Shown here piece after piece: positions 21,152 to 38,083 of a stretch of DNA of 59,107 nucleotides. How positions within the stretch are numbered: the stretch's first letter is position 1; each line of letters opens with the position of its first letter. The position numbers and the translations under genes are program-made. This stretch comes from Nemertoderma westbladi. Its lineage: Eukaryota > Animalia > Xenacoelomorpha. Location: positions 1 through 59,107 of the forward strand of contig JAUCBJ010001236.1 of the NCBI GenBank assembly GCA_032718475.1. The letters run 5' to 3'. The notes beneath the pieces were generated by a model. It did not search any database. It had not been told where the DNA came from and was given only the letters and a program-made list of their open reading frames with translations.

Positions 21152-22176
21152 TTGCCAATAATGGACATTTCAAAGGCATTCGATGAGGTTCAGCGGGGGA
21201 TAATGTTCAACGGACTATGTCGTGTAATAAATCCACACATATGTTGTCGTGTACTCATCCACTATTACTCCATTAGTATGATATTTATGAGATCTGGAAC
21301 AGTAACTGACACAGAGGGCTTCCCAGCAAAGATTGGAGTCAAACAGGGTTCTCTCTTGGGACCTTCTCTATTTAACTTTTACATAAAACATATCCACCAT
21401 AACTACAATGATGAAGATTACTACGCCTTGCTTACCTCATATACCCGAACCACTGCTGGTCCTTCTCATATGCGGATGATATATTTCTACTAAGCACATC
21501 ACAGTTTAACATCGAATTAAAATAGACTCGATAATTCTAAAATTAGAGAAGGTGGGCTTACAGATCGATATTAACAAGACAGCTTGGATTTTCCTTAGTG
21601 GTAGAGGATCAGCTGAGCCACCCCCTCTTTTTTTGCACATAAGTGATCACCTGATCCCCCAAACGACACACCTCACTTTCATCGGGTACAAAATCCCTCG
21701 AGATAACTTGTTGATTCATTAGCGGAGTGCTTCATCTCTCTGGTATGGACAATCAAGCGTATCCCCATCGAAACACTATCAACACTTTGGAAAACTTACT
21801 CTTTGCCAATTTTTCGCTATAGTTTTCCGTTTTACATAGGAGCTCTAAACTCTCTACAGCGGGACCAGTGAGGTATAGAAATGCACTACGAAAACTTCTC
21901 CATATTAATGGAACATTAATTTCGTCGAACATTTTATATGGGTTATTTGGAATCAATCAATTAATTCGAGAAATATACCAATCAGCTATTCTAACTGTCC
22001 AGCGATTGATCAGAGCCCCTAACACACTATTGCAATCAATAACACGGACAATTGGCACCCTAAACAACCAGCAACACTATTTGGGTCTTTGTTCAACTAT
22101 AAGGAAATGCGCGAAAAAATATGCAGTCCCACAGCTCTCGTCACTATTACAATATGAATATCAAAAGAGTGTCCTG
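21152..22176 (+). mobile_element. Degraded LINE RT fragment ending at the Maverick left terminus
   Basis: MDISKAFD, GVKQGSLLGPSLF, frameshifted YADD; the downstream ORF runs into AGTAGT at 22177. Confidence 0.8.
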
Positions 22177-23229
22177 AGTAGTAATAGTATGCCACCCTCT
22201 GCGACAGTTTAGTCCAACTTCACACCTTGGGTGTTAAGTAGGTCATTAATTAATTAATCAATTAATTAATTGGTCGATTAAACAATTAATTAATTGTTTA
22301 ATCAATCGATTTGTATCAAATAATGTTGCCAAAGGCAATTTAATTTGATACAAATCAATCAGATAGGGGACGCGCGATTAATAAATTGTACTATAACAAA
22401 CGAAATATACAATACAATATACAATACATTTGTATTATTTTTGCCATACAATAGGTAAAGGTAGAATTAAATAAAAAGACACGAACGGGACCCAAAACAT
22501 AAATATACCCTTTCACGAAAATAAAGTGGCCCCAGTTTGGCCCCGAGTCATCCCTCAATAATCTGTGGCTGCTCGGGCTCTTATTAACCGTAGCATGACT
22601 AACCCAAACATCAATGCGTGAATGGGGACTGCGTGAATGGGGCCTGCGATAGAGCTTAAATTATTCAAACCTATAGCTTCCAAGAAATTAGAATAAACAT
22701 CTGCTCTTGCAATAGATTGCATTCTTTCGCATTGTATTGCGAAGCAGTCCACGCGCATATTAGCTCAACAACAAAGCCCTACCCAAACGCCATGTGTCAA
22801 ATTAATTCCCAACCATCTCTTTACTACAGTGGATACTGCAGTTTTTTTTGTTTGAAGTAATTTCAGAGATGCTCTAGCGTAACATTAATTAACATACCCA
22901 TTCATTCATTACACGCAATTTTCTCCAACGCACCCCCCCGCTTCTCAATTCATCCCATTTCCCTTCGTAACTAATGTTTTACATTTAATTAACCCAATGA
23001 AATGTGTTTATTATTCCCTCAATCCAATAGCGCGTCTCTCTCTCTCTCTCTTTTTATTTCTATTGGTTCCCACAAGCTTCACTTTTATTTTCATTGGTTA
23101 TCCTTTCCCTTATAAACCCCCATCCTTCGCTTCGAACTTTACTTACAAAAATGTTATTGACAATTTTACTTTTTATTTAAAGTTATAATACATTTATTGT
23201 TATACATAATATTATATTTTCTTCAAGAT
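22177..23229. repeat. Left terminal inverted repeat
   Basis: Reverse complement of 37033-38083 with scattered mismatches. Confidence 0.95.
23060..23130 (+). promoter_or_regulatory. Candidate inward-facing Pol II promoter within the TIR (mirrored at ~37140-37210 on minus)
   Basis: Two attggtt (reverse CCAAT) boxes followed by TATAAA at 23111, shortly before the inner TIR edge. Confidence 0.5.
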
Positions 23230-23292
23230 TGTTATACGTAATACATTTATTGTTATACATAATATATTGTTGCAAACATCATCAATCTGCAG

Positions 23293-23416
23293 GTAAGAAC
23301 AATAAATTTGTGTTTTTATGAATTCGTTTAGTTTTAACATTATTACCTCAAAATAAATATCAACCCCGCGAAACCTTCCCAAACTTATTATTATTATTTA
23401 GTTTTTTATTTTATAG
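23293..23416 (+). other. Candidate 5' UTR intron upstream of pPolB
   Basis: cag|GTAAGA donor; T-rich tract ending tttatAG five nt before the pPolB ATG. Confidence 0.6.
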
Positions 23417-23421
23417 CAAAC

Positions 23422-26400
23422 ATGCCTATGTCACCAAAATTCGTTGACTGTCCTGTCTGCAATAAGAACATGCGCAGTGATAGTCTCAACAAACATCTCG
23501 CAACTCATTTTAAACAATATTCATGCGATTGTTGTGGCACCTGGTCCTCCGATAAGAAAACCATGGTTAGCCATCTAGCGCTATGTACGCAAGGTGGGAC
23601 TGGGTTCAGATTTATCAACGAAGAAAACACTTGCAAGTGTGGTGAATCATTCACTTTATCAGCCTTTAAAGAACACGATTGCTATACGCGACTCTTCTCT
23701 CGGAAACGCAAACAATCTCAAACGCCCTTGTCACCACCACCACCACCTCCACCACCAAACATTCAATCTCCAAGGGTTGGCCCTTCTACTTCAAGACAAC
23801 AGACTGGAGGTTCGACCAACAACCCATTTTTACCATCCGTGAATAGCTCATCCCACAACCGCTTATTTACATATACAAACACGTTACTTACACCACAATT
23901 AGATGTAGAGTTAACACTTAGAGAAAATGAAAGTTATATTTGGGATAGAGTGAGTCAACATTTTAATAATGAATTTAATTTTATAAAAGTTTGGTTAACT
24001 ATTTCTATCTTAATGGAAAGGGAGACATCTGAGGATACTCAATTAGAAACCTTCTGTTTCAAATCAAACGCTTCAAATAATCAAATAACTTCTAATTCAG
24101 ATTTTGAAAACTGGTTTTCGCAAACTATCGAACGAATAGATGAATTAATAGCAGTCTTTGTTTGCATGGGCAGTGGTTGGAATATTGTTTCAATTAAAGA
24201 AATCAATTTACAAATTTCTACCTTCAACCGCAACCCATATTTAAAAGGACACGGTGGTGGTTATATTCCTAAAATTTTAGCAAAGAAGAAGTGCATTATT
24301 AACTTAGATTGTCCCATTGGAGAATGTTTTAAGTACGCAGTAGTCGCGGCCGCTTGTTATAAAAAAATTGAAAGAAATAAACAAAACATTAGTCGATTGT
24401 CAACATATACTCCATACATGACCATGTTTGATTTCAGTACAATGAGTTTCCCAGTAGATAGAGTAGTAGGCATCCCACGTTTTTTAGAAACCAACCCTTT
24501 GTACTGCATTAATTTATTATTTTGGAGTACTGATAACACATTGAGCATTCTATCACAACCAGATTCAGAACATTGCTTCCAAAAAACTGTTTTAAATTTA
24601 ATGTTTATAGAAGGTAATCAAAACAATCCAGGACATTACTGCGCAATTGTCAACTTAAATAGACTTATTAAAAAACAAGGACAAGGGACCAAATCAATTT
24701 GCGAGCGTTGTCTGAGAGCTTTTTATACTATTAACTCATTGCAAACTCACCGGGAACTATGTTACTCGAGCAAACGACAGTTGGAACAAATGCCTACACC
24801 TGATAAATTAAAAATTAAATTCAATCGATTAGATAAGACATTATCCCCTCCCTTTTGCATATATGCTGATATTGAAAGTGTTTTAGAACCTACATCAAAC
24901 CCTAAATTAGTTCAAAAGCACATTGCTAGCGCCGCCGCATTTTATACAGTACCAAATCGCGAGCTAATAAATCCCCCGCAAACATCATTACAAATGTTTA
25001 GAGACACTGGAACAAACCATGTTATAGACGATTTTCTCACTGCCCTCGAATCACATTGTAGGGAATTATACGAGTGGACTATTTCTGGTACAAACACCAA
25101 TGTTCCTAAACATTTGACTCGAGCACAACAACAAAATTTTGATAATGCTACAAACTGTTACACTTGTAACTGTTCTCTAACCCCCGATTCACACGGACTG
25201 AATCTAGCAGAAAATCTCAATACTAAAGTTTGTGACCACAACCATCTAACGGGAGCCTATCGTGGGGCGGCATGTGTTAGTTGCAACCGCAAACTTTCTC
25301 TTAAACGCAATAAATTTTATGTAGTGCTACACAACCTGAGGCATTACGATTCCCATTTAATATTAAAAGAAGGTCTGAAAAACAGTTCTAGAACTCATTG
25401 GAAGATAAACGTAATTCCAAAGAACACTGAGACTTATATCAGTATAGAAATATCATTTCCCATAGACAAAACCATGCAGACAGCAAATGCAAAAGAAAGT
25501 ATTGTCATCAATCTTCTAGACTCTCTGCAGTTCATGACAGCTAGTCTAGATAAGCTCAGTAGTTATCTTACCGCAAACAATTCTGATCTAACAAAAGCTA
25601 TCCCACACACTTTGAAACAAATGAAAAATCTTTATCCCAATATTAGCGATTCCACTATTAAAAATAAAGGTATATTTCCTTATAGCTATATACAATCCAT
25701 AACAAACTTATACGAAACTCAATTACCACCAATCGAGAGTTTCTATAACGATTTACAGCTTGAAGACTGTAGCGAGCATAACTATCAGCGTGCCCAAACT
25801 AGTTGGGTTGAGCTTCAATGTCAAAACATATTTGATTATATGATGGGGTACTTGGCTCTAGATGTCACACTTCTCGCGGATACTTTCCAACAGTTTAGGG
25901 AACTATGTTTCTCCAATTATGGGTTAGATCCTCTGCATTATTATACTTCACCGGGGTTAACGTACGATGCAGCATTGAAATTTACAAACAGTGAAATTGA
26001 ACTACTATCTGATGGAACTATTTACGCAGATTTTGAAAATAATATTCGTGGAGGGCTTGTATTTCTGAATACACACTTAGAGGAAGCTAATATACCTGGC
26101 AAACCAGAATACAACCCCTGTAAACCAGAAAAATACCTAATTCCTCTCGATGCGAATAACCTTTATGGTTCTGCTCTCTCTCAGAAGCTCCCCTGCAGTA
26201 ATATGAAAATCGTCGATACACCAATAGATCTGGCTACAGTTGATGCCACTGGGTCAGTGGGGTATTACTGTATCGTTGACCTCGAATACCCCCGAGAGAT
26301 CCACAACGAAACTGCCGACCTACCACTAGGAGCGGAAAAAATGTCCATTCCCAAGAGCTTCCTCAGTACATACATGCAAGACCTCTGGCAACATTATAAT

Positions 26401-27483
26401 CTCAATGATCAAGGCACTTATAAGCAATATAATGAGAAATATAGTAAACTGATTCTTCATCAATTCAAAAAAACTAATTATGGTATTCATATAAAATTAC
26501 TCCAATTATACTTAAAATTAGGACTTCAAATAACACAGGTGCATAAAGTATACTCATTCACTCAAAAATACATATTCAGAGACTATATCTCGTTTAATAC
26601 ATCCAAACGACAATCTGCTAAAAATGCATTCGAAGTTTTATTTTATAAACTACTCAACAACTCACTCTATGGGAAAAGTCTTCAGAAGGTACGAGACCGG
26701 TTATCATTCCGACTCTGTACATCCCCAGAACAGTGCGACCTGCTATTATCAAAACCAAATCATGAGCGCTTCATCTCATTCTCCCCCTATCTCAGTGGTC
26801 ACACTTTTACTAAAGAAGTAGCAGTACTCAATCAAGCTGTATTTATTGGGGCAACCATCTTAGATCTTTCAAAGCTAGAGATGTATGATTACTATTACTG
26901 TAAACTGAAACCTCTCGAAGAAAAGCTGAGATGTGAAATTCGAGCCTTAGCTGGGGACACGGACAGTTTCTTTCTTTCGGTTACCGGTGTTGAGCACAAA
27001 ATATTCCTAGAAGCCATGTTTAACTCTGGCTTTCTAGACACTTCAAATTACGACCCCTCACACCCACTCTTTACAAATCAAAACAAGGCTTCCTTAGGTT
27101 TTTTGAAAGATGAAAGTAGAGGTCTATTATACAAATCATTTGTATTTTTGAAACCGAAAATGTATTCATTCGAGGCATACGACGCGCAACCAAAGCGGAC
27201 TTGCAAAGGAATTTCAAAAAATATTGTAGCCAAGCAATTAACACATAAACACTATTTAGACTGTTTTATCAACGAATCAACAGATTACACAAACAACACA
27301 ATATTTACTTCTAGGGAGCATCAAATGTTTACGGGGAGAATAAAAAAAAAAACATTAAGTCTCTGGGATACAAAATCATTCTGGATGACGAAATATTACA
27401 GTAGACCATATGGCCACTATATTACAGGATTAACTAAACCAGCAAAAAAAACTGTAATACCACCTTATTTAGTTGCAGAATAA
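23422..27483 (+). CDS. polB: Protein-primed family B DNA polymerase (pPolB) with N-terminal Zn fingers, TP/vOTU-like region and inserted endonuclease VII-like Zn module
   Basis: ExoI YADIES, ExoII HNLRHYD, ExoIII YLALDV, PolA DANNLYG, PolB KLLNNSLYGK, PolC GDTDS; CYTC...DHNHLTGAYRGAACVSCN. Confidence 0.97.
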   Translation: MPMSPKFVDCPVCNKNMRSDSLNKHLATHFKQYSCDCCGTWSSDKKTMVSHLALCTQGGTGFRFINEENTCKCGESFTLSAFKEHDCYTRLFSRKRKQSQTPLSPPPPPPPPNIQSPRVGPSTSRQQTGGSTNNPFLPSVNSSSHNRLFTYTNTLLTPQLDVELTLRENESYIWDRVSQHFNNEFNFIKVWLTISILMERETSEDTQLETFCFKSNASNNQITSNSDFENWFSQTIERIDELIAVFVCMGSGWNIVSIKEINLQISTFNRNPYLKGHGGGYIPKILAKKKCIINLDCPIGECFKYAVVAAACYKKIERNKQNISRLSTYTPYMTMFDFSTMSFPVDRVVGIPRFLETNPLYCINLLFWSTDNTLSILSQPDSEHCFQKTVLNLMFIEGNQNNPGHYCAIVNLNRLIKKQGQGTKSICERCLRAFYTINSLQTHRELCYSSKRQLEQMPTPDKLKIKFNRLDKTLSPPFCIYADIESVLEPTSNPKLVQKHIASAAAFYTVPNRELINPPQTSLQMFRDTGTNHVIDDFLTALESHCRELYEWTISGTNTNVPKHLTRAQQQNFDNATNCYTCNCSLTPDSHGLNLAENLNTKVCDHNHLTGAYRGAACVSCNRKLSLKRNKFYVVLHNLRHYDSHLILKEGLKNSSRTHWKINVIPKNTETYISIEISFPIDKTMQTANAKESIVINLLDSLQFMTASLDKLSSYLTANNSDLTKAIPHTLKQMKNLYPNISDSTIKNKGIFPYSYIQSITNLYETQLPPIESFYNDLQLEDCSEHNYQRAQTSWVELQCQNIFDYMMGYLALDVTLLADTFQQFRELCFSNYGLDPLHYYTSPGLTYDAALKFTNSEIELLSDGTIYADFENNIRGGLVFLNTHLEEANIPGKPEYNPCKPEKYLIPLDANNLYGSALSQKLPCSNMKIVDTPIDLATVDATGSVGYYCIVDLEYPREIHNETADLPLGAEKMSIPKSFLSTYMQDLWQHYNLNDQGTYKQYNEKYSKLILHQFKKTNYGIHIKLLQLYLKLGLQITQVHKVYSFTQKYIFRDYISFNTSKRQSAKNAFEVLFYKLLNNSLYGKSLQKVRDRLSFRLCTSPEQCDLLLSKPNHERFISFSPYLSGHTFTKEVAVLNQAVFIGATILDLSKLEMYDYYYCKLKPLEEKLRCEIRALAGDTDSFFLSVTGVEHKIFLEAMFNSGFLDTSNYDPSHPLFTNQNKASLGFLKDESRGLLYKSFVFLKPKMYSFEAYDAQPKRTCKGISKNIVAKQLTHKHYLDCFINESTDYTNNTIFTSREHQMFTGRIKKKTLSLWDTKSFWMTKYYSRPYGHYITGLTKPAKKTVIPPYLVAE

Positions 27484-27484
27484 A

Positions 27485-28009
27485 ATGCCATACAAAGCAA
27501 GCAGCGGATCAACACCAATTCAAATAATCAATCGTCAATATACAGCTCAAACTGAATTTCCAATTGATATAATCAAAGTTTCTCAACAACTAAAAGGTCA
27601 GATGCGACAAAAACCAAAAATGTTTGTGTATAAGACTGGATCTGCGACAATTATGCTATTCCCAACTGGTTCAATAACAATAGTGGGTCCATGTAAAAAT
27701 ATTTGTAATGATTTACTTTATCTGAAACAATGTACCAACATACTAATTAAGAAAATTAAATTAAATACAGTGACCAGACTAATTAAGTTACCATCTCTTA
27801 ATTTTAAATCATTAAGTAAAAAGTGTGGACATCATTTTGTAAACAATGTAAAGGTATATATTGATTTTACGCCGGAGCTCTTTTGTGGAATTCGGTTGTA
27901 TATTGGGCGATGTTATTTCAGTGTCTTTCACTCGATGAAAGTTATAAGTATGTGTCCTGTTGGTGATTTTGAAGAAGCTCTCATTATATTATTTAGTTTA
28001 TTGAATTAA
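27485..28009 (+). CDS. TATA-binding-protein-like protein (174 aa)
   Basis: Two TBP-like half repeats: ATIMLFPTGSITIVG resembles TALIFSSGKMVCTG; FTPELFCGI resembles YEPELFPGL; SVFHSMKVI resembles LIFVSGKVV; size matches the TBP core. Confidence 0.75.
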   Translation: MPYKASSGSTPIQIINRQYTAQTEFPIDIIKVSQQLKGQMRQKPKMFVYKTGSATIMLFPTGSITIVGPCKNICNDLLYLKQCTNILIKKIKLNTVTRLIKLPSLNFKSLSKKCGHHFVNNVKVYIDFTPELFCGIRLYIGRCYFSVFHSMKVISMCPVGDFEEALIILFSLLN

Positions 28010-28020
28010 TAAGTAAAATT

Positions 28021-28283
28021 ATCTCTCAATATACTACACGTCATTATACTGTATGAGCGGTTTTATATATTTATGTGATTATATTATCTCTCAATATACT
28101 ACATGTCATTATACTGTATGTGCGGTTTTATATATTTATGTGATTATATTATCTCTCCATATACTACATGTCATTATACTGTATGTGCGGTTTTATATAT
28201 TTATGTGATTATATTATCTCTCAATATACTACATGTTATTATACTGTATGTGCGGTTTTATATATTTATGTGATTATACTGCA
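28021..28283. repeat. 65-bp tandem repeat x4 between the replication and structural blocks
   Basis: atctctcaatatactacatgtcattatactgtatgtgcggttttatatatttatgtgattatatt at 28021, 28086, 28151, 28216. Confidence 0.93.
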
Positions 28284-28636
28284 TGTGGTTCTATATATTC
28301 ATGTAACATATAGTTTTATTAAATTTATGTAAAAAATATATTGAATTATATTATTAATAACATCTTACCTTGAGAACAAGTAATGGGGACCCACCTCTCC
28401 TCACCAAACCACTCCCAAAAAATCCGTAAGGCCAAGGTTTACTGCGCTTGTTCTCCATTGAGTGATTAGTTGTTAAACTGGTGAATTCATTATATAAATT
28501 TAAATATTTACTAAAGCCGCTAGATGGCATGCATTTGTGACACGAACATTAGTTTCATATTATACTGTATAAACGTTAAAATTCAATTATTATTTTAATA
28601 AATATAATAATAATTGTGTTATAAAAGGAAAACACG

Positions 28637-29263
28637 ATGGATATAGTAGATATGCGGTTTCGTTTTGGAAGTACAATATTAATAGCCGGTCCTAGTGGTA
28701 GTGGAAAAACTTCTTTCTTGGAGAAAATGTTATTAAATAGGAAATTGATCTTTAACGAAACTCCAAACAGTATTACTTGGTTTTATGGACAGACGAAACC
28801 AATAATTAAAGGGGTTAATATTACCGCTTTAAATGAAATTCCAGAACACTTTAATGAAAATGTGAAAAACCATTCTATCATTATAATCGACGATTTGATG
28901 ACAGAACTACAAAATTCCAAACAAGCGACTACGCTATTTACTAAAGTAGCTCGACATACAAATTCATTGGTAATTTTTCTCACTCAAAACCTTTATCAAA
29001 AAGGAGGAGAATCTAGGACCCGGTCCATTAATTCCACTTATTTCTTATTGTTCAAAAATCCGAGGGATCAGACACAGATAAGAACTTTAGCCTATCAGAT
29101 GAAACCAAATACACCCAAATTCTTAATCGCGGCATTTCAAGACGCAACAAAGGTTCCCTTTAACCCACTTCTTATTGATTTTCATCAATTAACGAATGAT
29201 AGCCTACGCATACGTGGTTATTTATTTACAAATGAACATTGTGTTTATCAACCCGTGTCGTAA
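28637..29263 (+). CDS. FtsK/A32-like genome packaging ATPase
   Basis: Walker A GPSGSGKT, Walker B IIIIDD, ARH and TQN motifs, FKNPRD. Confidence 0.93.
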   Translation: MDIVDMRFRFGSTILIAGPSGSGKTSFLEKMLLNRKLIFNETPNSITWFYGQTKPIIKGVNITALNEIPEHFNENVKNHSIIIIDDLMTELQNSKQATTLFTKVARHTNSLVIFLTQNLYQKGGESRTRSINSTYFLLFKNPRDQTQIRTLAYQMKPNTPKFLIAAFQDATKVPFNPLLIDFHQLTNDSLRIRGYLFTNEHCVYQPVS

Positions 29264-29276
29264 TATACGTAGAAGA

Positions 29277-29414
29277 ATGCTTCTATTAGCAATTGTCTGT
29301 TATTTAGTTATATTATACTTATTTGTGGTTTATCATCGACAAAGGTTTCTTAAATTTCTTAATATTATAGAACAAGTATGGAACTTAATATACGAAAGTA
29401 TAGGAAAGAACTAG
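29277..29414 (+). CDS. Small putative membrane protein (45 aa)
   Basis: MLLLAIVCYLVILYLFVVY hydrophobic helix then basic residues; fills the gap between ATPase and the next ORF. Confidence 0.5.
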   Translation: MLLLAIVCYLVILYLFVVYHRQRFLKFLNIIEQVWNLIYESIGKN

Positions 29415-29719
29415 AATTTTTGAAAAATAGCAACGCATTAGCGCGAGGGGCATTTATTCGAAAAAAGGCTAGTAGCGAATTAATACGACTTCTCGTTAAT
29501 ATTACACTGAATACGCTCTATGGGAATATAAATATTGATGGAAAGATTGTTAAAAAATTGAAGCCATATAAGAAATATATGAGACGATTGAAATCAAAAA
29601 ATTCAGTTTCACTTCAAAGACGTTCTCTCTCTCAGGCTGGGGGGTTCCTTCCACTTATTTTGCCACTGTTGATAGGCGCCACAAACATTGCCACAACTGT
29701 TGCCACAGCGTTAACATAG
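29378..29719 (+). CDS. Basic virion protein with adenovirus pX-like C-terminus
   Basis: QAGGFLPLILPLLIGA resembles adenoviral pX GG-ILPLLIPLIAAAIGA; Lys/Arg-rich. Confidence 0.75.
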   Translation: MELNIRKYRKELEFLKNSNALARGAFIRKKASSELIRLLVNITLNTLYGNINIDGKIVKKLKPYKKYMRRLKSKNSVSLQRRSLSQAGGFLPLILPLLIGATNIATTVATALT

Positions 29720-29721
29720 CC

Positions 29722-29904
29722 ATGTCATTCAAGAAACTATATTTAATAACCCCCGAACAACATGCTAGGTTGCAACCAACACAGTTGAAAACTAAACCTT
29801 TAATTAAAGAAACAAAGAAAAAAGCTCAAAATAAACGGACAATAAACGATAGAAGAAAAGTGTTGAAACTGTTTGATTATACGCGCCGCAAATCGCGAAA
29901 ATAA
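29722..29904 (+). CDS. Small basic protein (60 aa)
   Basis: gccATG context, tight packing with neighbours, strongly basic. Confidence 0.55.
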   Translation: MSFKKLYLITPEQHARLQPTQLKTKPLIKETKKKAQNKRTINDRRKVLKLFDYTRRKSRK

Positions 29905-29991
29905 TGTCTTGGTTAAAAAAACTTTCAGTAACTTGCAATTTTCGTTGTCTATGCAATTCTAGCAGTGTTACCTATGGTTATGATCAACAAG

Positions 29992-31044
29992 ATGGTAGAA
30001 AAACGCTTAGCCAAAGCTTACTACAATCCTTCAAGTGTTGCAGGGTTTTCCACTGTAGGAAAGCTAGCAAAAGAGACGGGAGTCAATCCAAAACTCGTGA
30101 AAAGATGGCTTCAAAGTCAGCCGACCTACACATTGCATGCCCCAGCGAGGCGTCTGTTTCCCACAAGCCGAATGTATTTTTATGGAATTAGTGACACCAT
30201 TCAGGCAGATTTAATAGATATGCAAAAATATCGCGCAACAAACTCAGGTTATGGATATATTCTAACCGCAATCAACTGTTTTAGTAAGAAGGGATGGGCA
30301 TTACCATTGAAACGGAAGACTGGTATTGAAATTAAACATGCACTACAGTCTATTTTTACTGAAGAAGTACCACGTAATTTATGTACAGATCAAGGGTTGG
30401 AATTCGACAATAAAGTTGTACTCAATTACTTGAAAATGAAAAAAGTTAAATATTATACAACATGATCGCAGTTCAAAGCAGCCATTTGCGAAAGGTATAA
30501 TAGAACGATAAAGACAAAGATGTATAAAATTTTTAGTAGAAGAGGTAACCATAAGTGGCTTGCTATTCTACCAAAAATTGTATACTCTTATAATAATTCT
30601 TTACATAGTTCTAATGGAATGCCCCCAATTCAAGTCAATAAGTTGAATGAAGATAACGTGAGAAGAAACCTCTATGGAAATTTAGCTAAAATCATTGTAA
30701 CAAAACCCAAATTGAGAATAGGTGACAATGTGCGACTTAATATAGCTAAAACGGCGTTTGAAAAAGGTTATACAAAAAATTGGACCGGAGAGGTGTTTAC
30801 TGTAAAACGTATAAGACTAGATCGTTTTCCTCAGCCTATGTATCATATAATAGATTCAGTTGATAGAGAAATAGAAGGAACATTTTACCCTCACGAATTG
30901 CAAAAGGTTACACAAACAACTGATATTCAGCCAATCGAGTCCATTTTGAAGTCTCGAATAAAAAACGGTCGGAAGGAATTCCTTGTAAAATTTAAAAACT
31001 ATAAACGGAACTCTTGGTTGAGCGAGTCTCAACTACGTAAATAA
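29992..31044 (+). pseudogene. int: Retroviral-like (rve) integrase with C-terminal chromodomain, interrupted by one in-frame TGA (30463-30465)
   Basis: YYNP, YTLH, QADLIDM, TDQGLEF, then *SQFKAAICERYNRTIK in the same frame; chromodomain IESILKSR...EFLVKFKNY...NSW. Confidence 0.92.
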
Positions 31045-31053
31045 ATCAACAAA

Positions 31054-31881
31054 ATGAATAACTATATAACTTTATTCTCAAATGGACCTACAAACAAATT
31101 TCCTGATAACACCCTTTCGAAATTTACGGTTGATCTACCATATACAATCAATCTCAGTGGTGATGTAGAAGTGGGACTATCTGAAATTCAATACTGTTCC
31201 TCATTCTATAATATACCTCAACAATCTCTGTTTACAATTTATTATGGAGATAGGACATCGCAAGTTGTTATATTTGAACCAGGACTATATACGAGTGTAG
31301 AAGCCATTATTAATAAAATCAATCAACAAATTGATCACCCGAAGTGGCCCCAAATTCAATTTTTCAAATACTCAAATAAAATCGAGCTCGCTACTTCGCA
31401 ACACTTTTCTTTTGAAATTACTGGAGATTTGATTACAATACTTGGTTTTGAGGAGTTTACGCAGGATTATGATCCGAGGGATGTACCTTATCTAGCTAAT
31501 TGGTATGATTATTGGAGTGTAAATGTTAGTGAATTTGGTTCTTTAACATTCAAACAGCAACCGGGCCAGCGTGCTCAATTTAGAGGGATTTGTCCCTTTT
31601 CTTGCGATTTAGTCTTGGGGCGACATAATTTGTTTATCTATAGTGACATTACTTCTCATGTGACTGTAGGAAATACGACGGCACCGTTATTACGCACGGT
31701 ACCTCTCGAACTTGAGCATAATAAAGTTATAACGCGCGAATTTAAAAAAATTTATTACAGACCAGTTGCTAGAACAATTGTTAATCAGATAAATATTGAA
31801 TTACGCAACGAAAAAGGAGAACTAATATTATTTAATGGAGGTGCAACAATAATTACCCTACACTTAAAAAGTAAGCCATAA
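31054..31881 (+). CDS. Minor capsid protein (penton) 1
   Basis: YITLFSN...FPDNTLSKFTVDLP...VEVGLSEIQY...FIYSDI...VGNTTAPLLRTV...ITLHLK, typical Polinton penton motifs. Confidence 0.82.
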   Translation: MNNYITLFSNGPTNKFPDNTLSKFTVDLPYTINLSGDVEVGLSEIQYCSSFYNIPQQSLFTIYYGDRTSQVVIFEPGLYTSVEAIINKINQQIDHPKWPQIQFFKYSNKIELATSQHFSFEITGDLITILGFEEFTQDYDPRDVPYLANWYDYWSVNVSEFGSLTFKQQPGQRAQFRGICPFSCDLVLGRHNLFIYSDITSHVTVGNTTAPLLRTVPLELEHNKVITREFKKIYYRPVARTIVNQINIELRNEKGELILFNGGATIITLHLKSKP

Positions 31882-32675
31882 TGGAGAAAATATTATATTT
31901 ACCCTCAAATTCTTCACCTAAACGATTTCCGTTAAACCAACCTTCTAACTTTAATGTGGAACTATCTGAACCATTGCGTTTTAGTGGAAAGTGGATGGTG
32001 GGTCTGTCAGAAATTGTTTACCTCTCCTCGGTTCATAATTTAGAAGATACATTCATTTATATTCGGAGTTTACAAGGAACTAAAAGAAAATATATAATAC
32101 CATCTGGTTGTTATACTAATGTGGAGGCGTTGCTTACACAGCTAAATATAGATGGTCTCAATTCCCATTTAGAAATAAGACAAAATGAGCTTTATGACAA
32201 CATTAGTATTCAGTTTATCGACGAAAGTAAAGTTGTTCGTTTTTATGGAAATAAGTTGATTGAGTTACTTGGATTGCGGGGATTAGAAAATGAGTATTAT
32301 GTTAATAAAAATAAATTTCTTGTTAGCTTAAAAAATGATTATCTACAAATAACACGAAGGGGGGAAATAGAGGGTGATTCTGATATATTACATATTCAAA
32401 AAGCAACAAATGTTTTTATGGGAAACATTAGTATATTTTCAAATATTTGCGGAAATGAGATTGTTGGAAATCAACTGAAACCCCTCTTAAGATCTATTCC
32501 TTATCAAGGAGATTATGGTAAGCTTGTTCATCATGAATTCACAAATATTAATTATAAATCCATTGATATGCAAAATATAGAAACAATAAATATACAGTTA
32601 AAAAATGATCGAGATGAATTCATAAAGTTTAATAATGGTACTGTAGTTGCGACATTAATTTTGAAACGCCAATAA
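31881..32675 (+). CDS. Minor capsid protein (penton) 2, paralog
   Basis: LYLPSNSS...FPLNQPSNFNVEL...WMVGLSEIVY...VGNQLKPLLRSI; TAATG overlap with penton 1. Confidence 0.82.
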   Translation: MEKILYLPSNSSPKRFPLNQPSNFNVELSEPLRFSGKWMVGLSEIVYLSSVHNLEDTFIYIRSLQGTKRKYIIPSGCYTNVEALLTQLNIDGLNSHLEIRQNELYDNISIQFIDESKVVRFYGNKLIELLGLRGLENEYYVNKNKFLVSLKNDYLQITRRGEIEGDSDILHIQKATNVFMGNISIFSNICGNEIVGNQLKPLLRSIPYQGDYGKLVHHEFTNINYKSIDMQNIETINIQLKNDRDEFIKFNNGTVVATLILKRQ

Positions 32676-32706
32676 ACGATAAATAAGGAAATATATTTAG
32701 GAAGCA

Positions 32707-33282
32707 ATGAGTTATAAAGATTATTATCAAAGGAGTTTGTAGAAAACATTACAGAGAACACTTTATAAGGTTATTCGCGGCGGTGTTAAAAATAAACAGA
32801 CTGGGAGGATGAAGGGTCTCAGCTCAGAAATTGTTACACCCCCTTCCATAATGAGGCAACGATTACAATTATTAGAATGGAAACCAAAGGTGGGGGGAGG
32901 ACTACCTTATTTTGAGGGGGGATATAGACATCGACACATGAACAGTCGCACAGTTTTTGTGAGACACGGTCAACGAGGTAAAGGTATCCTTGGAAATATT
33001 ATTCGGATTGCAACCAAAGTAGTGCCCAAAGTTATTAAGCCCGTCGCGCGAGCAGCAATTCGCAAAAGTGCTCCTTTTGTAAAAAAGACAGGGAGAAAAA
33101 TTGTCAAACGAGTAATTCGTCGGGGAATTCCACAACTTAAAAAGATTGGAAAGAAATTAGCAGAACAGGCTCTCGCCAGCTCAAAACCTTCCACTAAACG
33201 AGTAGCTCATAAAATTATTGAAGAAGTTTTAAATGCTGCTGATGGGAGGTCAATAAACGAAACTCGCAAAAAACGCAAATAA
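32707..33282 (+). CDS. Basic core/membrane-lytic virion protein; probable true start 32707 with in-frame TAG at 32740-32742
   Basis: MSYKDYYQRSL*KTLQR...IRGG...VGGGLPYFEG...QRGKGILGNIIRIATKVV amphipathic basic helix; same frame as ORF 32809-33282. Confidence 0.7.
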
Positions 33283-33329
33283 AAAAAGAATCACTGTCCA
33301 GATATTTTTGGTTAAACTAAATAATAACA

Positions 33330-34580
33330 ATGGAAGAAACCACGGAAGCACTAAATTTATTTAATCGCAGTGATGTTCAGACTGTAATTGAAGAAAGTTT
33401 TGAGCAGGAAATATACCCTGTGACTACATTGGGAGAGGGCACATCAGTTATAGATTTCATGATTGAAAAGTCAGAAGATTACTATACGATAGGAAATGAA
33501 ACAACACTACAATTAGTATATCGTGTTGTAACAACAACACGACCTGACAATGGCGCAGTTTATCAAACACCACTAAGCCTCTCTACTCTATTTTCAAACA
33601 TTAGTGTTTTGATTAATGAGCGGGAGGTAGAGTCTAATACTGCAAACTATCCCTATAAAGCTTTCCTAAAAGCGATCTTACTTAATGATCAGAGTACAAA
33701 AGAAACGATTTTAGCTGCCGAAGGGTTTGCAGAACAAGAAGCATTTGGTGTTCCTGTAGACTTTGCTGCAGCTGCTCATTTGGAAAGTAGACCATATTAT
33801 GTTCAGGGGTCTCTATTTGTTGACCTTTTTGAACAGGCTAAATTTATCCCACCCAAAACTAGTATAAGAATTAGATTAACAAGAGCTACAAATGCGTTTA
33901 ACTTAGTATGTATTGCAGCTGTACAAGAGCCTCGAATCAATATATCGAATGCTTTGTTGAAAATTAAACGAGTAAAATTGGATCCATATATACGTCAACA
34001 ACATATAGAACAATTAAAAATAGGAGATTATATTTATCCAATGATACAGAATGAGGTGACAACCTTTACTATAGCAAATGGTCAACAATCTCATGTGAGG
34101 GAAAATTTGTTTACAAGCAAGAATGTACCTCGCTTTGTTAATATTGTCATGGTTCGAAATGACTCTTACAATGGAAACTTAAGATCTAATTCACTATTGT
34201 TTGATCACTTTAATGTGAATTACTTACAACTTACGTTGGATGGTAAGGTAATTGGAGGTGTGACATATAAACCAAATTTTGCTAATGGACAATATATTAA
34301 TGAGTATTGCGCCAGCCAAAAAAACCTTCTATCTATAACCAGAGGTACAAACAACGGCATTACTCCCACTAGATTTCGTGATTTATATCCAATATTTTCT
34401 TGGAATTTATCTCCCACGGGATTTCTTGATGAAGACGAACGAAACCCACATCAAATAGGCAATGCTAGATTAGAGATTGCTTTCTCAGCTCCTTTACAAA
34501 ATACAATTAACGTTATTATGTGGGTGGGATATGATAGAACTGTCAATATCAGCAATGTTGGATCCGTAACTATTTTCTAG
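33330..34580 (+). CDS. Major capsid protein (double jelly-roll)
   Basis: 416 aa, beta-rich; LNLF...QTVIE...EIYP...IDFMI N-terminus, NYPYKAF, GNARLEIAFS C-terminus; position beside the protease. Confidence 0.85.
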   Translation: MEETTEALNLFNRSDVQTVIEESFEQEIYPVTTLGEGTSVIDFMIEKSEDYYTIGNETTLQLVYRVVTTTRPDNGAVYQTPLSLSTLFSNISVLINEREVESNTANYPYKAFLKAILLNDQSTKETILAAEGFAEQEAFGVPVDFAAAAHLESRPYYVQGSLFVDLFEQAKFIPPKTSIRIRLTRATNAFNLVCIAAVQEPRINISNALLKIKRVKLDPYIRQQHIEQLKIGDYIYPMIQNEVTTFTIANGQQSHVRENLFTSKNVPRFVNIVMVRNDSYNGNLRSNSLLFDHFNVNYLQLTLDGKVIGGVTYKPNFANGQYINEYCASQKNLLSITRGTNNGITPTRFRDLYPIFSWNLSPTGFLDEDERNPHQIGNARLEIAFSAPLQNTINVIMWVGYDRTVNISNVGSVTIF

Positions 34581-34590
34581 AAAGAAAAAC

Positions 34591-35019
34591 ATGTTGAACT
34601 CATATGATTTGAATAATTTCCCTATAGGAAAACATTATCGTGGTTCTTTCGCCATTGATCAATTACCAGCAAAGGATGGCTCTAAAATGAGCTTCATTTC
34701 AAATACTCAAGCCGCTCATTTACCTGGTATGCATTGGGTTGCTGTTTTTATGAATGAAAATATAGGTGAATACTTTGATTCATTTGGAGTGTTCCCCCCG
34801 GCTCGTATAGAAGACTGGTTGTTGCGTAATACAATAAAATGGACAAGGACACGAAAAGTGGTTCAACACCCTCTAAGGACGAGTTGTGGGGGATACTGTT
34901 TATATTACTTATCTGAACGATCAAAAACTGACACGCCTCTACGCAAGTTTGGAACAGACTTGAAACAAAATGAAAAGATACTTGCATGTTGGTTACGGAA
35001 CAAAGCCATAATGAATTGA
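34591..35019 (+). CDS. Adenain/Ulp1-like cysteine maturation protease
   Basis: NT...PGMHWVAV, EYFDSFG, Q...SCGGYC (His-Asp-Gln-Cys). Confidence 0.93.
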   Translation: MLNSYDLNNFPIGKHYRGSFAIDQLPAKDGSKMSFISNTQAAHLPGMHWVAVFMNENIGEYFDSFGVFPPARIEDWLLRNTIKWTRTRKVVQHPLRTSCGGYCLYYLSERSKTDTPLRKFGTDLKQNEKILACWLRNKAIMN

Positions 35020-35321
35020 TATTATTAGTTGTGTTACAATGTGTTATATCTTATGTGTTACAATGTGTTATATCTTAAATGTTACTCTGCTATATGTATA
35101 TGTATATGTGTTATGTTATAAATATATATTTCAATGTTGCTATATTAAAAATAAGAAAATAGTCGACTATATTTCATTTTTCTTTTTCAACTTTGGATAA
35201 ATAATATAGGGGTTAAACAAAGAACATCAAAACAGTTAAACAGTTACATTTAACATTTAGACAGTAAACAGTAACAGTAAACATTTACATGACCAGTTAC
35301 AATAGACAAGTAACATAAAGT

Positions 35322-37034
35322 TTAGTTTATATCCACAGCATCTAGCTTTATCTTTTTCTGTTCTAATGGAGGATAGTGAGCTAATTTTCGTTTTACAATT
35401 TCCATCGAATATCTTTTAGAGATGTTGGGGGAATCATTAGGGTGAAATAGATTGAGGTGGATCTGCTTGGGGAGGAAAACTGCGTCTTTTAGTGTGCGTT
35501 TGAGAAAGTTGATGCAACACTCAACAGCATAGTTTGAAGGTAGGGTTAATTTGTTTGTTGTCTTCAGGCTGACAATAATTGTTTCTGATGGTGTATGTTG
35601 AATGTGTATAAGGGGGGTGAGATAGTAATGGGAGGAAGTGGATTGTTGAATGGGATGAAAGTTGGAGAAATCACTCGCTTTTATATTTAAACCATCGGTA
35701 AACTGAAACGTGGTTGATTTCAAATCTTTTTTGATGACGGGCCATATGCCAACATAAGCTTCGCCTTTGAATGAATAAATGAAAGCCGCTACTGATTCGT
35801 ATAAATTAAGACACTGGTGATTAGGTAGTTGTAGTTGCTTTGGTTCATAATCACTATTGTTGGCCAATGACTTTAGTTCAGAGAGTGCTTCTCGGGCGCG
35901 ATCTGTATTGTCAATAGAGAACATGTAGTCATAGCGTCTGTCAGAAATTTCAAGGGTTTCGCAGTTGTAAGCGGTATAAATTTTTATTCGATCTGAAATT
36001 AATTCTTCGTGGTTGACTTCATCGTAGCATTCGTATCCTTCGACCGCAGAATCGAACCATGAAATTTTAAGAAGTTCATTTCTCGTGAGTAAAAGTGCAT
36101 CTCTTGTGGAAACAATAACTTTGTTTGAATCAACCTCAACGCCGCTCGCGATTGCAATGTTTCTTTTATTATTAATATTTGTGATATAACCAAAAGTAGA
36201 ACTATCGAAAGAAACATAGTTCTCTGGCTCTAAGACAATGTGCGAGATTGGATTGATGTAAGGACGACAAATGTTTATATAATGTTGTAGTAAAGCAGCC
36301 GCAGTGTCTGAAATGGTTAACCAACCCCCATCTACTGTATCTTCTAGTTGTATTAAATCAATAGGTTTTAGTGGGGATGTTTTCGAATAACGAACAACTT
36401 TAAAATTAAAACCAAAATAATGTGCTTTGCTGTTGTTGTAGAAACAGGTTATTTCATTCAATGGTTCAATAAAAGTTAGTACATCATATCCAAACAGTTT
36501 GAAGAAACGAGATTCATCTTTGAGGGGATGAATCGAGGCGTTCCAAATAATTAAAAGAATTGAGTTTGAAATATTATGAAAATCAAACAGACACTCATCA
36601 ACAAAAAAGGAAGCTTTGAGTGTTGACATACCAAGGAGCTTGTTTGCAGATTCTTGTGTTACATTGCTGTGGATATATTCAACAACCGGTTGAGGTATTA
36701 CAAATGTTTCTAACGAGGTTGTCAGATTGAACGTTATATTCGATTCTGATTTGTACAGTTTGAAACCATGGTTTGCGGAATGAAATTTGTCATTATTTAG
36801 AGTTTGATATTGACCATCCTTCAACTCAAAGCAGGATCGTAGAATGAAATGTGCATAATTTGCTGGAATGAGATGGGGTTGGTTAGATGAAGTGGTAACC
36901 GTCATTGGAAAGCGTTTGTTCGAAGGATCAAAATATAAACCGAAAGAGTTGTCTGAGAGAGATATTTGATTTTCGTTGGAAACAATTTTTACTTGAGGGA
37001 AGTTGAACTTTTGAAGGAGTTGAGCTTGAGCCAT
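35322..37034 (-). CDS. 570-aa unknown protein, possibly with PC4-like ssDNA-binding repeats
   Basis: Intact long ORF whose ATG sits at the right TIR boundary; IYSFKGEAYVGIW...GLNIKASDF segment; C-terminal KKIKL NLS-like. Confidence 0.8.
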   Translation of the reverse strand: MAQAQLLQKFNFPQVKIVSNENQISLSDNSFGLYFDPSNKRFPMTVTTSSNQPHLIPANYAHFILRSCFELKDGQYQTLNNDKFHSANHGFKLYKSESNITFNLTTSLETFVIPQPVVEYIHSNVTQESANKLLGMSTLKASFFVDECLFDFHNISNSILLIIWNASIHPLKDESRFFKLFGYDVLTFIEPLNEITCFYNNSKAHYFGFNFKVVRYSKTSPLKPIDLIQLEDTVDGGWLTISDTAAALLQHYINICRPYINPISHIVLEPENYVSFDSSTFGYITNINNKRNIAIASGVEVDSNKVIVSTRDALLLTRNELLKISWFDSAVEGYECYDEVNHEELISDRIKIYTAYNCETLEISDRRYDYMFSIDNTDRAREALSELKSLANNSDYEPKQLQLPNHQCLNLYESVAAFIYSFKGEAYVGIWPVIKKDLKSTTFQFTDGLNIKASDFSNFHPIQQSTSSHYYLTPLIHIQHTPSETIIVSLKTTNKLTLPSNYAVECCINFLKRTLKDAVFLPKQIHLNLFHPNDSPNISKRYSMEIVKRKLAHYPPLEQKKIKLDAVDIN

Positions 37035-38083
37035 CTTGAAGAAAATATAATATTATGTATAACAATAAATGTATTATAACTTTAAATAAAAAGTAAAATT
37101 GTCAATAATATTTTTGTAAGTAAAGTTCGAAGCGAAGGGTGGGGGTTTATAAGGGAAAGGATAACCAATGAAAATAAAAGTGAAGCTTGTGGGAACCAAT
37201 AGAAATAAAAAGAGAGAGAGAGAGACGCGCTATTGGATTGAGGGAATAATAAACACATTTCATTGGGTTAATTAAATGTAAAACATTAGTTAGGTTGGGA
37301 AATGGGATGAATTGAGAAGCGGGGGGTGCGTTGGAGAAAATTGCGTGTAATGAATGAATGGGTATGTTAATTAATGTTACGCTAGAGCATCTCCGAAATT
37401 ACTTCAAACAAAAAAAACTGCAGTATCCACTGTAGTAAAGAGATGGTTGGGAATTAATTTGACATGTGGTGTTTTGGGTAGGGCTTTGTTGTTGAGCTAA
37501 TATGCGCGTGGACTGCTTCGCAATACAATGCGAAAGAATGCAATCTATTGCAAGAGCAGATGTTTATTCTAATTTCTTGGAAGCTATAGGTTTGAATAAT
37601 TTAAGCTCTATCGCAGGCCCCATTCACGCAGGCCCCATTCACGCATTGATGTTTGGGTTAGTCATGCTACGGTTAATAAGAGCCCGAGCAGCCACAGATT
37701 ATTGAGGGATGACTCGGGGCCAAACTGGGGCCACTTTATTTTCGTGAAAGGGTATATTTATGTTTTGGGTCCCGTTCGTGTCTTTTTATTTAATTCTACC
37801 TTTACCTATTGTATGGCAAAAATAATACAAATGTATTGTATATTGTATTGTATATTTCGTTTGCTGTAGTACAATTTATTCATCGCGCGTCCCCTATCTG
37901 ATTGATTTGTATCAAATTAAATTGCCTTTGGCAACATTATTTGATACAAATCGTTTGATTTAACAATTAATTAATTGTTTAATCGACCAATTAATTAATT
38001 GATTAATTAATTAATGACCTACTTAACACCCAAGGTGTGAAGTTGGACTAAACTGTCGCAGAGGGTGGCATACTATTACTACT
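37033..38083. repeat. Right terminal inverted repeat
   Basis: Reverse complement of 22177-23229; ends tactattactact. Confidence 0.95.

What the first reader, a model, noticed from the sequence alone, without database searches (positions are those of the whole stretch)
27485..28009. Polinton-encoded TATA-binding-protein-like factor
Seen: an intact 174-aa ORF starts one base after the pPolB stop. It has two half-repeats that align by eye to the TBP core: IQIINRQYTAQTEFPIDI / ATIMLFPTGSITIVG and IKLNTVT / FTPELFCGI / SVFHSMKVI. Three of the four DNA-intercalating Phe positions look retained; the first (PKRF in TBP) reads PKM. Known: TBP is not in the usual Maverick core gene set (pPolB, INT, ATPase, PRO, MCP, penton), although large DNA viruses encode TBP-like late transcription factors. 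Inference: this small endogenous virus may carry its own promoter-recognition factor, or a decoy of host TBP/TFIID.
Basis: partly seen in the sequence, partly recalled or inferred. Interest (0 to 1): 0.88.

Follow-up and report, generated by a model that had tools for sequence, protein, structure and literature searches.

The report
Polinton's spliced, stripped-down TATA-binding protein
A virus-like jumping element in an animal-type genome carries its own shortened version of the cell's TATA-binding protein, likely made by splicing from the same promoter as its DNA polymerase, which probably switches on its particle-building genes through a non-standard TATA-like box.

Summary
The 174-aa ORF (27485-28009) is real, intact and TBP-like. 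With ten relatives it folds confidently (pLDDT 87.6) into the two-lobed TBP saddle (Foldseek TM about 0.70; VIA Z 13.6). It lies in a 15.9-kb Polinton-type element with about 1.05-kb inverted repeats. Relatives form a family, and 3 of 3 with readable context sit beside Polinton protease or ATPase genes. Three of four DNA-kinking Phe are invariant. The first Phe and the basic regulatory helix are lost; the TFIIB-binding Glu pair survives in 10 of 10 relatives but only half here. One public contig joins a leader at 23292 to an acceptor six bases before the TBP start (GT..AG), likely alternative splicing with pPolB, though the run is not recorded as RNA. (T/A)ATAAACG precedes 5 of 9 late genes (p 0.001-0.09, depending on the null). 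Best reading: a private late-promoter factor using host Pol II; binding is untested. A TBP label exists in a figure legend for non-animal relatives (Starrett 2021), and herpes and giant viruses have TBP mimics. This scan already noted Polinton TBPs on other genomes (15 notes, at least 3 genomes). New variant of a known kind.

The parts
27485..28009 (+). TBP-like ORF, 174 aa, core saddle only
22177..23229 (+). left terminal inverted repeat (AGTAGT end); holds TATAAA at 23111 and CCAAT/ATTGG words, the candidate early promoter (inferred)
   Evidence: 1034 of 1054 columns identical to the right repeat
23200..23292 (+). likely non-coding leader exon, ending at a CAG|GTAAGA donor; no ATG in 23190-23292; true 5' end unknown (23200 is only the inferred start of the joined contig)
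   Evidence: (record 21, loose end)
23293..23416 (+). predicted 124-nt GT..AG intron to an acceptor 5 nt before the pPolB ATG (from sequence only; no joined contig seen)
23293..27478 (+). likely 4186-nt GT..AG intron that skips pPolB and joins the leader to the TBP start
23422..27483 (+). protein-primed DNA polymerase B with N-terminal zinc-finger-like part, 1353 aa, intact
   Evidence: PF03175 E=2.2e-12
28018..28278 (.). 65-bp x 4 AT-rich tandem repeat between TBP and the late module
28568..28575 (+). candidate late box TATAAACG, 69 nt before the ATPase ATG
28637..29263 (+). A32-like packaging ATPase
   Evidence: PF04665 E=3.8e-5
29378..29719 (+). pX-like small core protein (weak)
   Evidence: PF05829 E=0.036
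29830..29848 (+). two candidate late boxes AATAAACG (29830, 29841) before the 95-aa ORF and the integrase, inside a 60-aa ORF
29974..31044 (+). retroviral-type integrase with chromodomain, broken in this copy by an in-frame stop at 30463-30465
31000..31007 (+). candidate late box TATAAACG, 54 nt before ORF 31054, inside the integrase coding region
31054..32675 (+). two ORFs of 275 and 264 aa, probably minor capsid (penton-type) genes by position; no family hit
   Evidence: label from recalled Maverick gene order
32671..32678 (+). candidate box AATAAACG overlapping a stop codon (may be a poly(A) signal), 138 nt before ORF 32809
32809..33282 (+). very basic 157-aa ORF, probably a core protein; holds candidate box AATAAACG at 33252, 78 nt before the next ATG
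33330..34580 (+). 416-aa ORF, probably the major capsid protein by size and position; no tool hit
34591..35019 (+). adenain-like cysteine protease (weak)
   Evidence: PF00770 E=0.0052
35322..37034 (-). 570-aa ORF of no known family, starting at the inner edge of the right repeat; likely second early gene
37033..38083 (-). right terminal inverted repeat (ACTACT end); flanks show no matching 6-bp target duplication

Best explanation
The ORF encodes a core-only TBP-fold protein of a Polinton-borne family that is likely made early by splicing a leader from the left terminal repeat past the polymerase gene, and that probably acts as the element's own late-promoter factor, predicted to bind (T/A)ATAAACG boxes and bring in host TFIIB and RNA polymerase II. 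Shown: the ORF, the family, the predicted saddle fold, the residue pattern, one joined contig with GT..AG ends, and the positions of the boxes. Inferred: (1) the join is RNA splicing, giving leader-pPolB and leader-TBP messages from one promoter, as in the adenovirus E2 unit (recalled); (2) the protein binds and kinks DNA with its three remaining Phe; (3) loss of the F99 equivalent and of P191 fits a box that departs from TATAAAAG at the 7/8 step (C-G) and at position 1 (T or A); (4) the shortened, non-basic helix H2 would escape Mot1/BTAF1, TAF1, TFIIA and Brf1; (5) with no RNA polymerase or recognisable TFIIB gene in the element, host TFIIB/Pol II is the likely partner, more weakly for this copy, which keeps only one of the two stirrup glutamates.
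For: Fold: pLDDT 87.6, pTM 0.77, at least 4 strands and 2 helices in each half. All Foldseek PDB rows listed down to rank 44 are TBP-containing, TMq 0.63-0.73. VIA ranks 1-5 are TBP, Z 11.9-13.6, rmsd 2.9-3.2 over 153-163 residues; next fold Z 7.9. Family: F116, F190, F207 and E188 equivalents in 11 of 11 rows; E186 in 10 of 10 relatives. These two Glu are the TFIIB contact and are only about 40% conserved at the first position in other viral TBPs (PMC7221094 section 11). H2 region: 0-3 Lys/Arg in 16-19 residues against 7 in 24 for cellular-type P0006; this patch binds TFIIA, Mot1, TAF1 and Brf (section 12). Context: 3 of 3 metagenome loci lie beside a Polinton protease or ATPase. Constraint: 3 of 3 differences shown in the ORF are synonymous (p=0.037); 30 of 37 in pPolB; 40 of 73 differences were shown. 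Splice: record 21 of run X4 has 45 letters on 27474-27518 and 88 loose letters, of which the 30 shown match only 23258-23287; the skipped part starts GT and ends AG, 6 nt before the ATG. Box: ATAAACG occurs 7 times in the element, all on +, 6 of them 53-137 nt before late ATGs (5 of 9 genes); 1-3 of 1000 random placements do as well when both strands are the background; 6 seen against about 0.9-1.0 expected. In L002 and L003 the TBP gene itself has a canonical TATAAAAG 55-57 nt upstream, while the L003 ATPase and its neighbour have TATAAAC.
Against: No binding or activation data. The box is weak under the stricter null (plus strand, late region only): 38-92 of 1000; 6-mer and 8-mer settings gave 48-398 of 1000, and one of nine settings crashed. 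Four of six boxes contain AATAAA, a poly(A) signal, and one overlaps a stop codon. Four of nine late genes lack the exact word. The presumed early promoter also reads TATAAAC (23111), and the ATPase has a canonical TATAAAAG 17 nt upstream. Host TBP has been crystallised on a C(-25) TATA variant (1qn3 title; that this is TATAAACG is recalled), so host TBP may read these boxes. This copy is the most divergent member (18-27% identity): T129 replaces the first TFIIB Glu, and both late Gly of the second lobe are lost. The join rests on one contig from a run labelled DNA? and has 5 nt shared on both sides, so a DNA deletion is possible. The 11 rows are about 6 independent lineages, and the context of P0002-P0009 is unknown.
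Confidence: 0.55

Rival explanations
1. Decoy or repressor: the protein binds host TFIIB, or occupies host or element TATA boxes without activating, damping host transcription or shutting off the element's own early promoter.
For: The acidic TFIIB stirrup is kept in 10 of 10 relatives while several DNA-face residues change (V122 to Arg, T124 to Met, L205 to Asn). The repeat promoter also has TATAAAC.
Against: Three intercalating Phe are invariant, which a pure protein decoy would not need. The surface for TFIIA, TAF1 and Mot1 is lost, and this copy has lost one TFIIB Glu.
Confidence: 0.15
2. Replication factor: co-expressed with pPolB, it bends the AT-rich terminal repeats or the 65-bp repeats to help protein-primed initiation or packaging, rather than acting in transcription.
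For: It likely shares a transcription unit with pPolB. The termini carry AT-rich arrays at 22245-22311. Rolling-circle initiators share part of the fold (Z 7.9).
Against: The TFIIB-type E-x-E-L-F loop is kept across the family. In 3 of 3 related loci it is not next to the polymerase.
Confidence: 0.12
3. General booster: a host-like TBP stand-in, freed from negative control, that serves all element promoters (for instance in germ cells) with no private box; the ATAAACG words are poly(A) signals or chance.
For: The motif is marginal under the strict null; four of six contain AATAAA; canonical TATA words also occur before late genes.
Against: Family-wide changes on the DNA-reading face, including loss of the F99 equivalent in 9 of 9 rows; 7:0 strand bias, and five of six boxes inside upstream coding sequence.
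Confidence: 0.12
4. Decaying passenger: a once-functional gene now drifting in this lineage.
For: Lowest identity to the family and loss of several otherwise invariant residues; this copy's integrase is broken.
Against: Intact ORF; 3 of 3 shown differences synonymous; no indel listed inside the ORF; confident fold; a splice-type join placed exactly before its ATG.
Confidence: 0.06

Closest known systems
Cellular and archaeal TATA-binding protein (Pfam PF00352; PDB 1ytb, 1cdw, 1mp9)
   Same: Two-lobed saddle over about 160 residues; F116, F190, F207, N69, L189 and E188 equivalents.
   Different: 13-17% identity; no F99 or P191 equivalent; E186 is Thr; helix H2 short (residues 73-84) and not basic; no N-terminal extension; encoded by a mobile element.
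[quoted passage not shown] 2021, PMC8502044; preprint 10.1101/697771)
   Same: A TBP-like gene in a mid-size linear dsDNA element of the Polinton group (figure legends).
   Different: There it is only a legend label in the section on non-animal eukaryotes, with no residue analysis, promoter or splicing in the passages I read. I could not see the figure, so which element carries it, and whether it is this family, is unknown.
Beta/gammaherpesvirus TBP mimic KSHV ORF24 with TATTWAA late promoters (PMC12529657)
   Same: Virus-encoded TBP fold with an altered DNA face, no viral RNA polymerase, and a variant TATA box before structural genes (shown there, inferred here).
   Different: ORF24 is a 752-aa multidomain protein in a six-protein complex, keeps all four Phe, binds Pol II directly and lacks the TFIIB acidic residues. 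The Polinton protein is a bare 174-aa core, lacks one Phe, and its family keeps the TFIIB Glu pair.
Large dsDNA virus TBP-TFIIB pairs (PMC7221094) and haloarchaeal virus TBP (HRTV-9 gp39)
   Same: Viral TBP-like fold (BFVD TMq up to 0.62; HRTV-9 29% to P0002); loss of the N-lobe regulatory patch.
   Different: Almost all of those viruses also encode a TFIIB-like partner; none was detected here. The model resembles cellular TBP (TMq about 0.70) more than the viral models.
Adenovirus E2 transcription unit (recalled, no call)
   Same: One non-coding leader spliced to alternative acceptors before replication-module genes.
   Different: Here the alternative product is a TBP-like protein, and the evidence is one contig.

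Membership tests
TBP superfamily (fold) | Pseudo-symmetric two-lobed alpha/beta saddle | tested here: met
   half-versus-half hhalign probability 63% over 23 columns
TBP superfamily (fold) | Detectable homology to PF00352 | tested here: met
   P0001 alone is below the gathering score, but it is linked through relatives that pass; family profile versus P0006 97.7%; 35 PDB TBP sequences hit
Canonical cellular TBP | Four intercalating Phe (yeast F99, F116, F190, F207) | tested here: not met
   3 of 4; F99 position is Gln here and never Phe in 9 of 9 covering rows (numbering)
Canonical cellular TBP | Two minor-groove Asn (N69, N159) | tested here: inconclusive
Canonical cellular TBP | TFIIB-binding Glu pair (E186, E188) | tested here: inconclusive
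   This copy T129/E131; 10 of 10 relatives have both
Canonical cellular TBP | Basic N-lobe patch on helix H2 (TFIIA, Mot1, TAF1, Brf) | tested here: not met
   2 Lys/Arg in 19 residues against 7 in 24 for P0006; helix 73-84
Canonical cellular TBP | Binds and bends a TATA box, nucleates a pre-initiation complex | not testable with these tools
   needs binding and transcription assays
Herpesvirus vTBP (ORF24/BcRF1/UL87) | Large multidomain protein with a Pol II-binding N-terminal domain and a C-terminal DNA-binding domain | tested here: not met
   174 aa, saddle only against the domains
Large-virus orthogonal TBP-TFIIB system | TFIIB-like gene in the same viral genome | tested here: inconclusive
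   No TFIIB or cyclin hit for the element's ORFs in Pfam or NCBIfam, but the 570-aa ORF was not folded alone
Polinton/Maverick (adintovirus-type) element | pPolB, retroviral-type integrase, packaging ATPase, cysteine protease | tested here: met
   integrase and protease hits are below gathering scores, and the integrase is broken
Polinton/Maverick (adintovirus-type) element | Long terminal inverted repeats with AGT-repeat ends (recalled feature) | tested here: met
Polinton/Maverick (adintovirus-type) element | Double jelly-roll major capsid protein | tested here: inconclusive
   416-aa ORF at the expected place has no hit
Polinton/Maverick (adintovirus-type) element | 6-bp target-site duplication of this copy (recalled feature) | tested here: not met
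   Flanks differ. This concerns this insertion (recombined, rearranged or merged in assembly), so the element is called Polinton-type.

The most novel reading that the evidence does not exclude
Animal Polintons carry the smallest self-encoded basal transcription switch yet seen: one 20-kDa TBP, made by adenovirus-E2-like alternative splicing from the polymerase promoter, that has traded one DNA-kinking Phe for a private ATAAACG box, shed the surface by which the cell removes or inhibits TBP, and recruits host TFIIB-Pol II directly to capsid, packaging and integrase genes. That would be an independent, one-protein parallel to the six-protein herpesvirus late complex.
Probability: 0.35. Interest if true: 0.82.

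Novelty: new variant of a known kind. Interest (0 to 1): 0.62.

Why it matters
How animal Polintons time their capsid genes, and whether they run a true viral cycle at all, is open. A self-encoded TBP with a matching late box would give an early-to-late switch that can be tested with one small protein and a few promoter fragments. It would also be a natural TBP variant missing one of four intercalating Phe and the Mot1/TAF1/TFIIA surface, useful for dissecting TATA recognition and as a candidate orthogonal promoter factor. If the box proves to be chance or a poly(A) signal, it remains a curious accessory gene of one Polinton group.

Tried and rejected
Direct searches with P0001: 0 hits among 21 candidates; none in PDB, NCBIfam or viral contigs. 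Seven of eight viral-contig scans gave no confirmed locus; the eighth gave one 1.1-kb ATPase locus, L005, not examined further. So no comparison of elements with and without TBP was possible. No whole genome is held: copy number, host TBP genes and full-length dN/dS were not measured. The protein atlas gave no answer. Single-sequence folding failed. The alignment-based fold left out the cellular-type P0006, but its relatives are themselves TBP-like, so it is not fully independent of the sequence evidence. Complex prediction of the TBP core with the 570-aa ORF: no answer, score 0.00, alignment not used; not evidence either way. A by-eye PC4 resemblance in the 570-aa ORF found no support in Pfam or PDB. 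Runs: no RNA holder listed. X4's contigs cover only 12 of 30 bins, at the 3' end, and the joined contig (14.6) and the read-through contig (14.7) sum to about the downstream contig (29.9). That looks like poly(A) RNA, but contig depth and missing cover cannot show it, so it is not counted. Depth near 1000 in X1 and X2 is not a copy number. My first motif null was miscoded, since its count limit excluded the word, and was replaced. Looser words (TATAAA, TATA[AG]A, GTTAAA) were only 2-3-fold enriched, and the degenerate AT[AT][AT]ACG adds hits away from starts. No tree was built: only one cellular-type sequence of unknown origin was at hand, and PDB scores for eukaryotic and archaeal TBPs overlap, so the donor is unresolved. 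The primary paper on TATA-variant structures was not held; a substitute did not address the point. Trans-splicing of a host leader was rejected because the joined letters match the element itself.

Full report
Observation. The ORF at 27485-28009 (+) is 174 aa, intact, and starts one base after the stop of a 1353-aa ORF. It lies in an element spanning 22177-38083, bounded by inverted repeats of about 1.05 kb (1034 of 1054 columns identical) with AGTAGT/ACTACT ends. The flanks show no matching 6-bp duplication. The element encodes pPolB (PF03175 E=2.2e-12), an A32-like ATPase, a pX-like protein, an integrase with chromodomain broken by an in-frame stop at 30463-30465, an adenain-like protease, and unassigned ORFs, among them a probable capsid protein (no hit) and a 570-aa ORF on the minus strand. 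The flanks hold reverse-transcriptase fragments, satellites and kinesin pieces. An animal host is inferred from this and from the adintovirus-like gene set.

Is it TBP? Alone the protein is marginal: Pfam TBP E=0.0014, below the cut-off. A search of 1.8 billion representatives returned one relative, P0002, which hits TBP in both lobes at E=1.5e-17. Further searches gave P0003-P0005 and P0007-P0009, plus a cellular-type TBP, P0006. A metagenome scan gave 3 loci from 116 candidate stretches. A profile of the ten relatives scores P0001 at 41.1 bits against 14.2 for the best of 1000 shuffles. AlphaFold2 on the 11-row alignment, without P0006, gave pLDDT 87.6. Foldseek placed TBP structures in all listed rows to rank 44 (TMq 0.63-0.73). 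VIA gave Z 13.6, rmsd 2.9 over 160 residues, with the next fold at Z 7.9. Viral models score lower (TMq at most 0.62). It belongs to the TBP superfamily but is not a canonical TBP.

Anatomy (yeast numbering from PMC12529657 Table 1; mapping). F116, F190, F207 and E188 are kept in 11 of 11 rows. The F99 position is never Phe in the 9 rows that cover it; an invariant Pro-(Lys/Arg)-Met replaces that loop. P191 is Cys here, Ile in 7 and Pro in 3 relatives. E186 is Glu in 10 of 10 relatives but Thr here. N159 is ambiguous (T97 or N94). The H2 region has 0-3 basic residues against 7 in P0006. In PMC7221094 (sections 11 and 12 and passages) the two glutamates are the TFIIB contact and the basic N-lobe patch binds TFIIA, Mot1, TAF1 and Brf; most viral TBPs lose both and bring their own TFIIB. 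This family keeps the first and loses the second, and no TFIIB-like gene was detected in the element (inconclusive). The 11 rows are about six independent lineages.

Family context and constraint. L001 and L002 carry the gene tail-to-tail with an adenain-like protease; L003 carries it head-to-head with a packaging ATPase 37% identical to the window's. So it is a Polinton family gene in 3 of 3 readable loci, but its place after pPolB is not shown to be conserved. The context of P0002-P0009 is unknown; two lie on contigs of 15.7 and 12.3 kb. Four of seven listed runs were laid on 23400-28020. Two cover all 30 bins with 180 and 442 contigs, mostly 95% or more alike, consistent with a multi-copy family. 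Of 73 differences 40 were shown: 3 of 3 in the TBP ORF and 30 of 37 in pPolB are synonymous (p=0.037 and 7e-9 against a transition null).

Expression layout. One 133-letter contig of run X4 has 45 letters on 27474-27518 and 88 loose letters before them. The 30 shown match the window once, at 23258-23287. With the five shared letters assigned, the skipped 4186 nt begin GT at 23293 in a CAG|GTAAGA context and end AG at 27478, six bases before the TBP ATG. A second acceptor ends at 23416, five bases before the pPolB ATG, and the leader region has no ATG. Another X4 contig runs across the pPolB-TBP border unjoined. Among the 15 of 21 loose ends shown, only X4 has this join. The likely reading is a leader from the terminal repeat spliced to either gene. 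The run is labelled DNA? by a guess and none is recorded as RNA, so a microhomology deletion in DNA remains possible. The same repeat at the other end abuts the ATG of the 570-aa ORF, which suggests three early genes and a late module at 28637-35019.

Candidate late box. Prompted by earlier scan notes, I searched upstream of nine late-module starts. ATAAACG occurs 7 times in the element, all on the plus strand; six lie 53-137 nt before late ATGs, covering 5 of 9 genes, as TATAAACG twice and AATAAACG four times. As the best of all 7-mers it is matched by 1-3 of 1000 random placements with both strands as background, but by 38-92 of 1000 with only the plus strand of the late region. Other word lengths and windows gave 36-398 of 1000. 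Six are seen where about one is expected (the word was chosen after looking). Five of six lie in upstream coding sequence, and four contain AATAAA. The departures from TATAAAAG are at position 1 and the 7/8 step. TBP's two Phe pairs insert at steps 1/2 and 7/8 (PMC1935006, passages), and P191 favours T at position 1 (PMC12529657, passages); that the N-lobe pair with F99 serves the 7/8 step is recalled. The match to the lost residues is suggestive only. Against a private code: the repeat promoter also reads TATAAAC, the ATPase has a canonical box at -17, and host TBP has been solved on a C(-25) variant (1qn3).

Mechanism. Most likely (0.55) an early, spliced mini-TBP that marks late promoters and recruits host TFIIB/Pol II while escaping negative regulators. 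Rivals: decoy or repressor (0.15), origin-bending factor (0.12), non-specific booster (0.12), relic (0.06). No step beyond fold, residues, join and motif positions is shown.

What is known. Searches for Polinton or Maverick with TBP or TATA and adintovirus with splicing found one direct precedent. [quoted passage not shown] The figures were not visible. The one supplement held as text had no TBP term; bioRxiv supplements are closed and may name the gene in animal elements. No TBP term occurs in 10.1101/2024.03.25.586562, 10.1101/2024.03.18.585575 or PMC12220804 (term searches of the main text). PMC10675990 mentions TBP genes in mirusvirus-like elements (passage). 10.1101/2020.12.26.424438 (passages) added nothing. 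Subscription papers and Repbase entries were not searched. Herpesvirus ORF24 is the closest working model, but differs in size, partners and TFIIB use. The scan's own notes report Polinton TBPs in at least 3 other genomes, some with ATAAAC-type boxes, and spliced leaders on Maverick polymerases; none matched this sequence or genome. They are unchecked and not counted as support. One of them reports loss of all partner surfaces, whereas this family keeps the TFIIB glutamates.

Verdict. Observation confirmed; interpretation partly supported. New variant of a known kind; interest 0.62. What this window adds is the joined contig linking the TBP gene to the polymerase leader.

Noticed in passing
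window 35322-37034 (-): 570-aa ORF of no known family starting at the inner edge of the right repeat. By eye it has PC4-like stretches (about residues 405-460), unsupported by Pfam or PDB.
   Followed up: partly
window 22171-22176 and 38084-38089: The element has near-identical repeats but no target-site duplication, which may mean recombination between copies or a merged assembly.
   Followed up: partly
window 23469 (run X1 loose end): A loose end finishing in a Polinton-type ACTACT terminus joins here, perhaps another Polinton inserted in one copy's polymerase gene.
   Followed up: no
window 28018-28278: Four 65-bp AT-rich repeats follow the TBP gene; a 12-nt part of the unit recurs just before the ATPase box at about 28557-28570. 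Possible enhancer or binding array.
   Followed up: no
window 28363-28370 (-): A donor-like AG|GTAAGA on the minus strand between TBP and the ATPase; a possible antisense or divergent transcript.
   Followed up: no
window 29901-29906 and 31878-31883: Stop-start overlaps (TAATG) join the 60-aa ORF to the 95-aa ORF and the 275-aa ORF to the 264-aa ORF, suggesting translational coupling; the 264-aa gene has no box of its own.
   Followed up: no
window 23422-25300: pPolB has an N-terminal C2H2-like zinc finger, a proline run and an endonuclease VII-like insert at residues 578-625.
   Followed up: no
L002:357 and L003:1053: In two related loci the TBP gene has its own canonical TATAAAAG box 55-57 nt upstream instead of a shared leader.
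   Followed up: partly
window 26932 and 27342 (run X4 contigs): One-base deletions in pPolB in X4 contigs show broken copies or assembly slips.
   Followed up: no
window 42036-42716 and 51993-52667: Kinesin motor pieces separated by a 28-bp satellite, a 15-bp array and reverse-transcriptase fragments.
   Followed up: no
window 783-8585 and 42934-46690: Large satellites: 31 bp x 249 and 28 bp x 133.
   Followed up: no
window 55980-57728: 582-aa GC-rich ORF without a Pfam hit.
   Followed up: no
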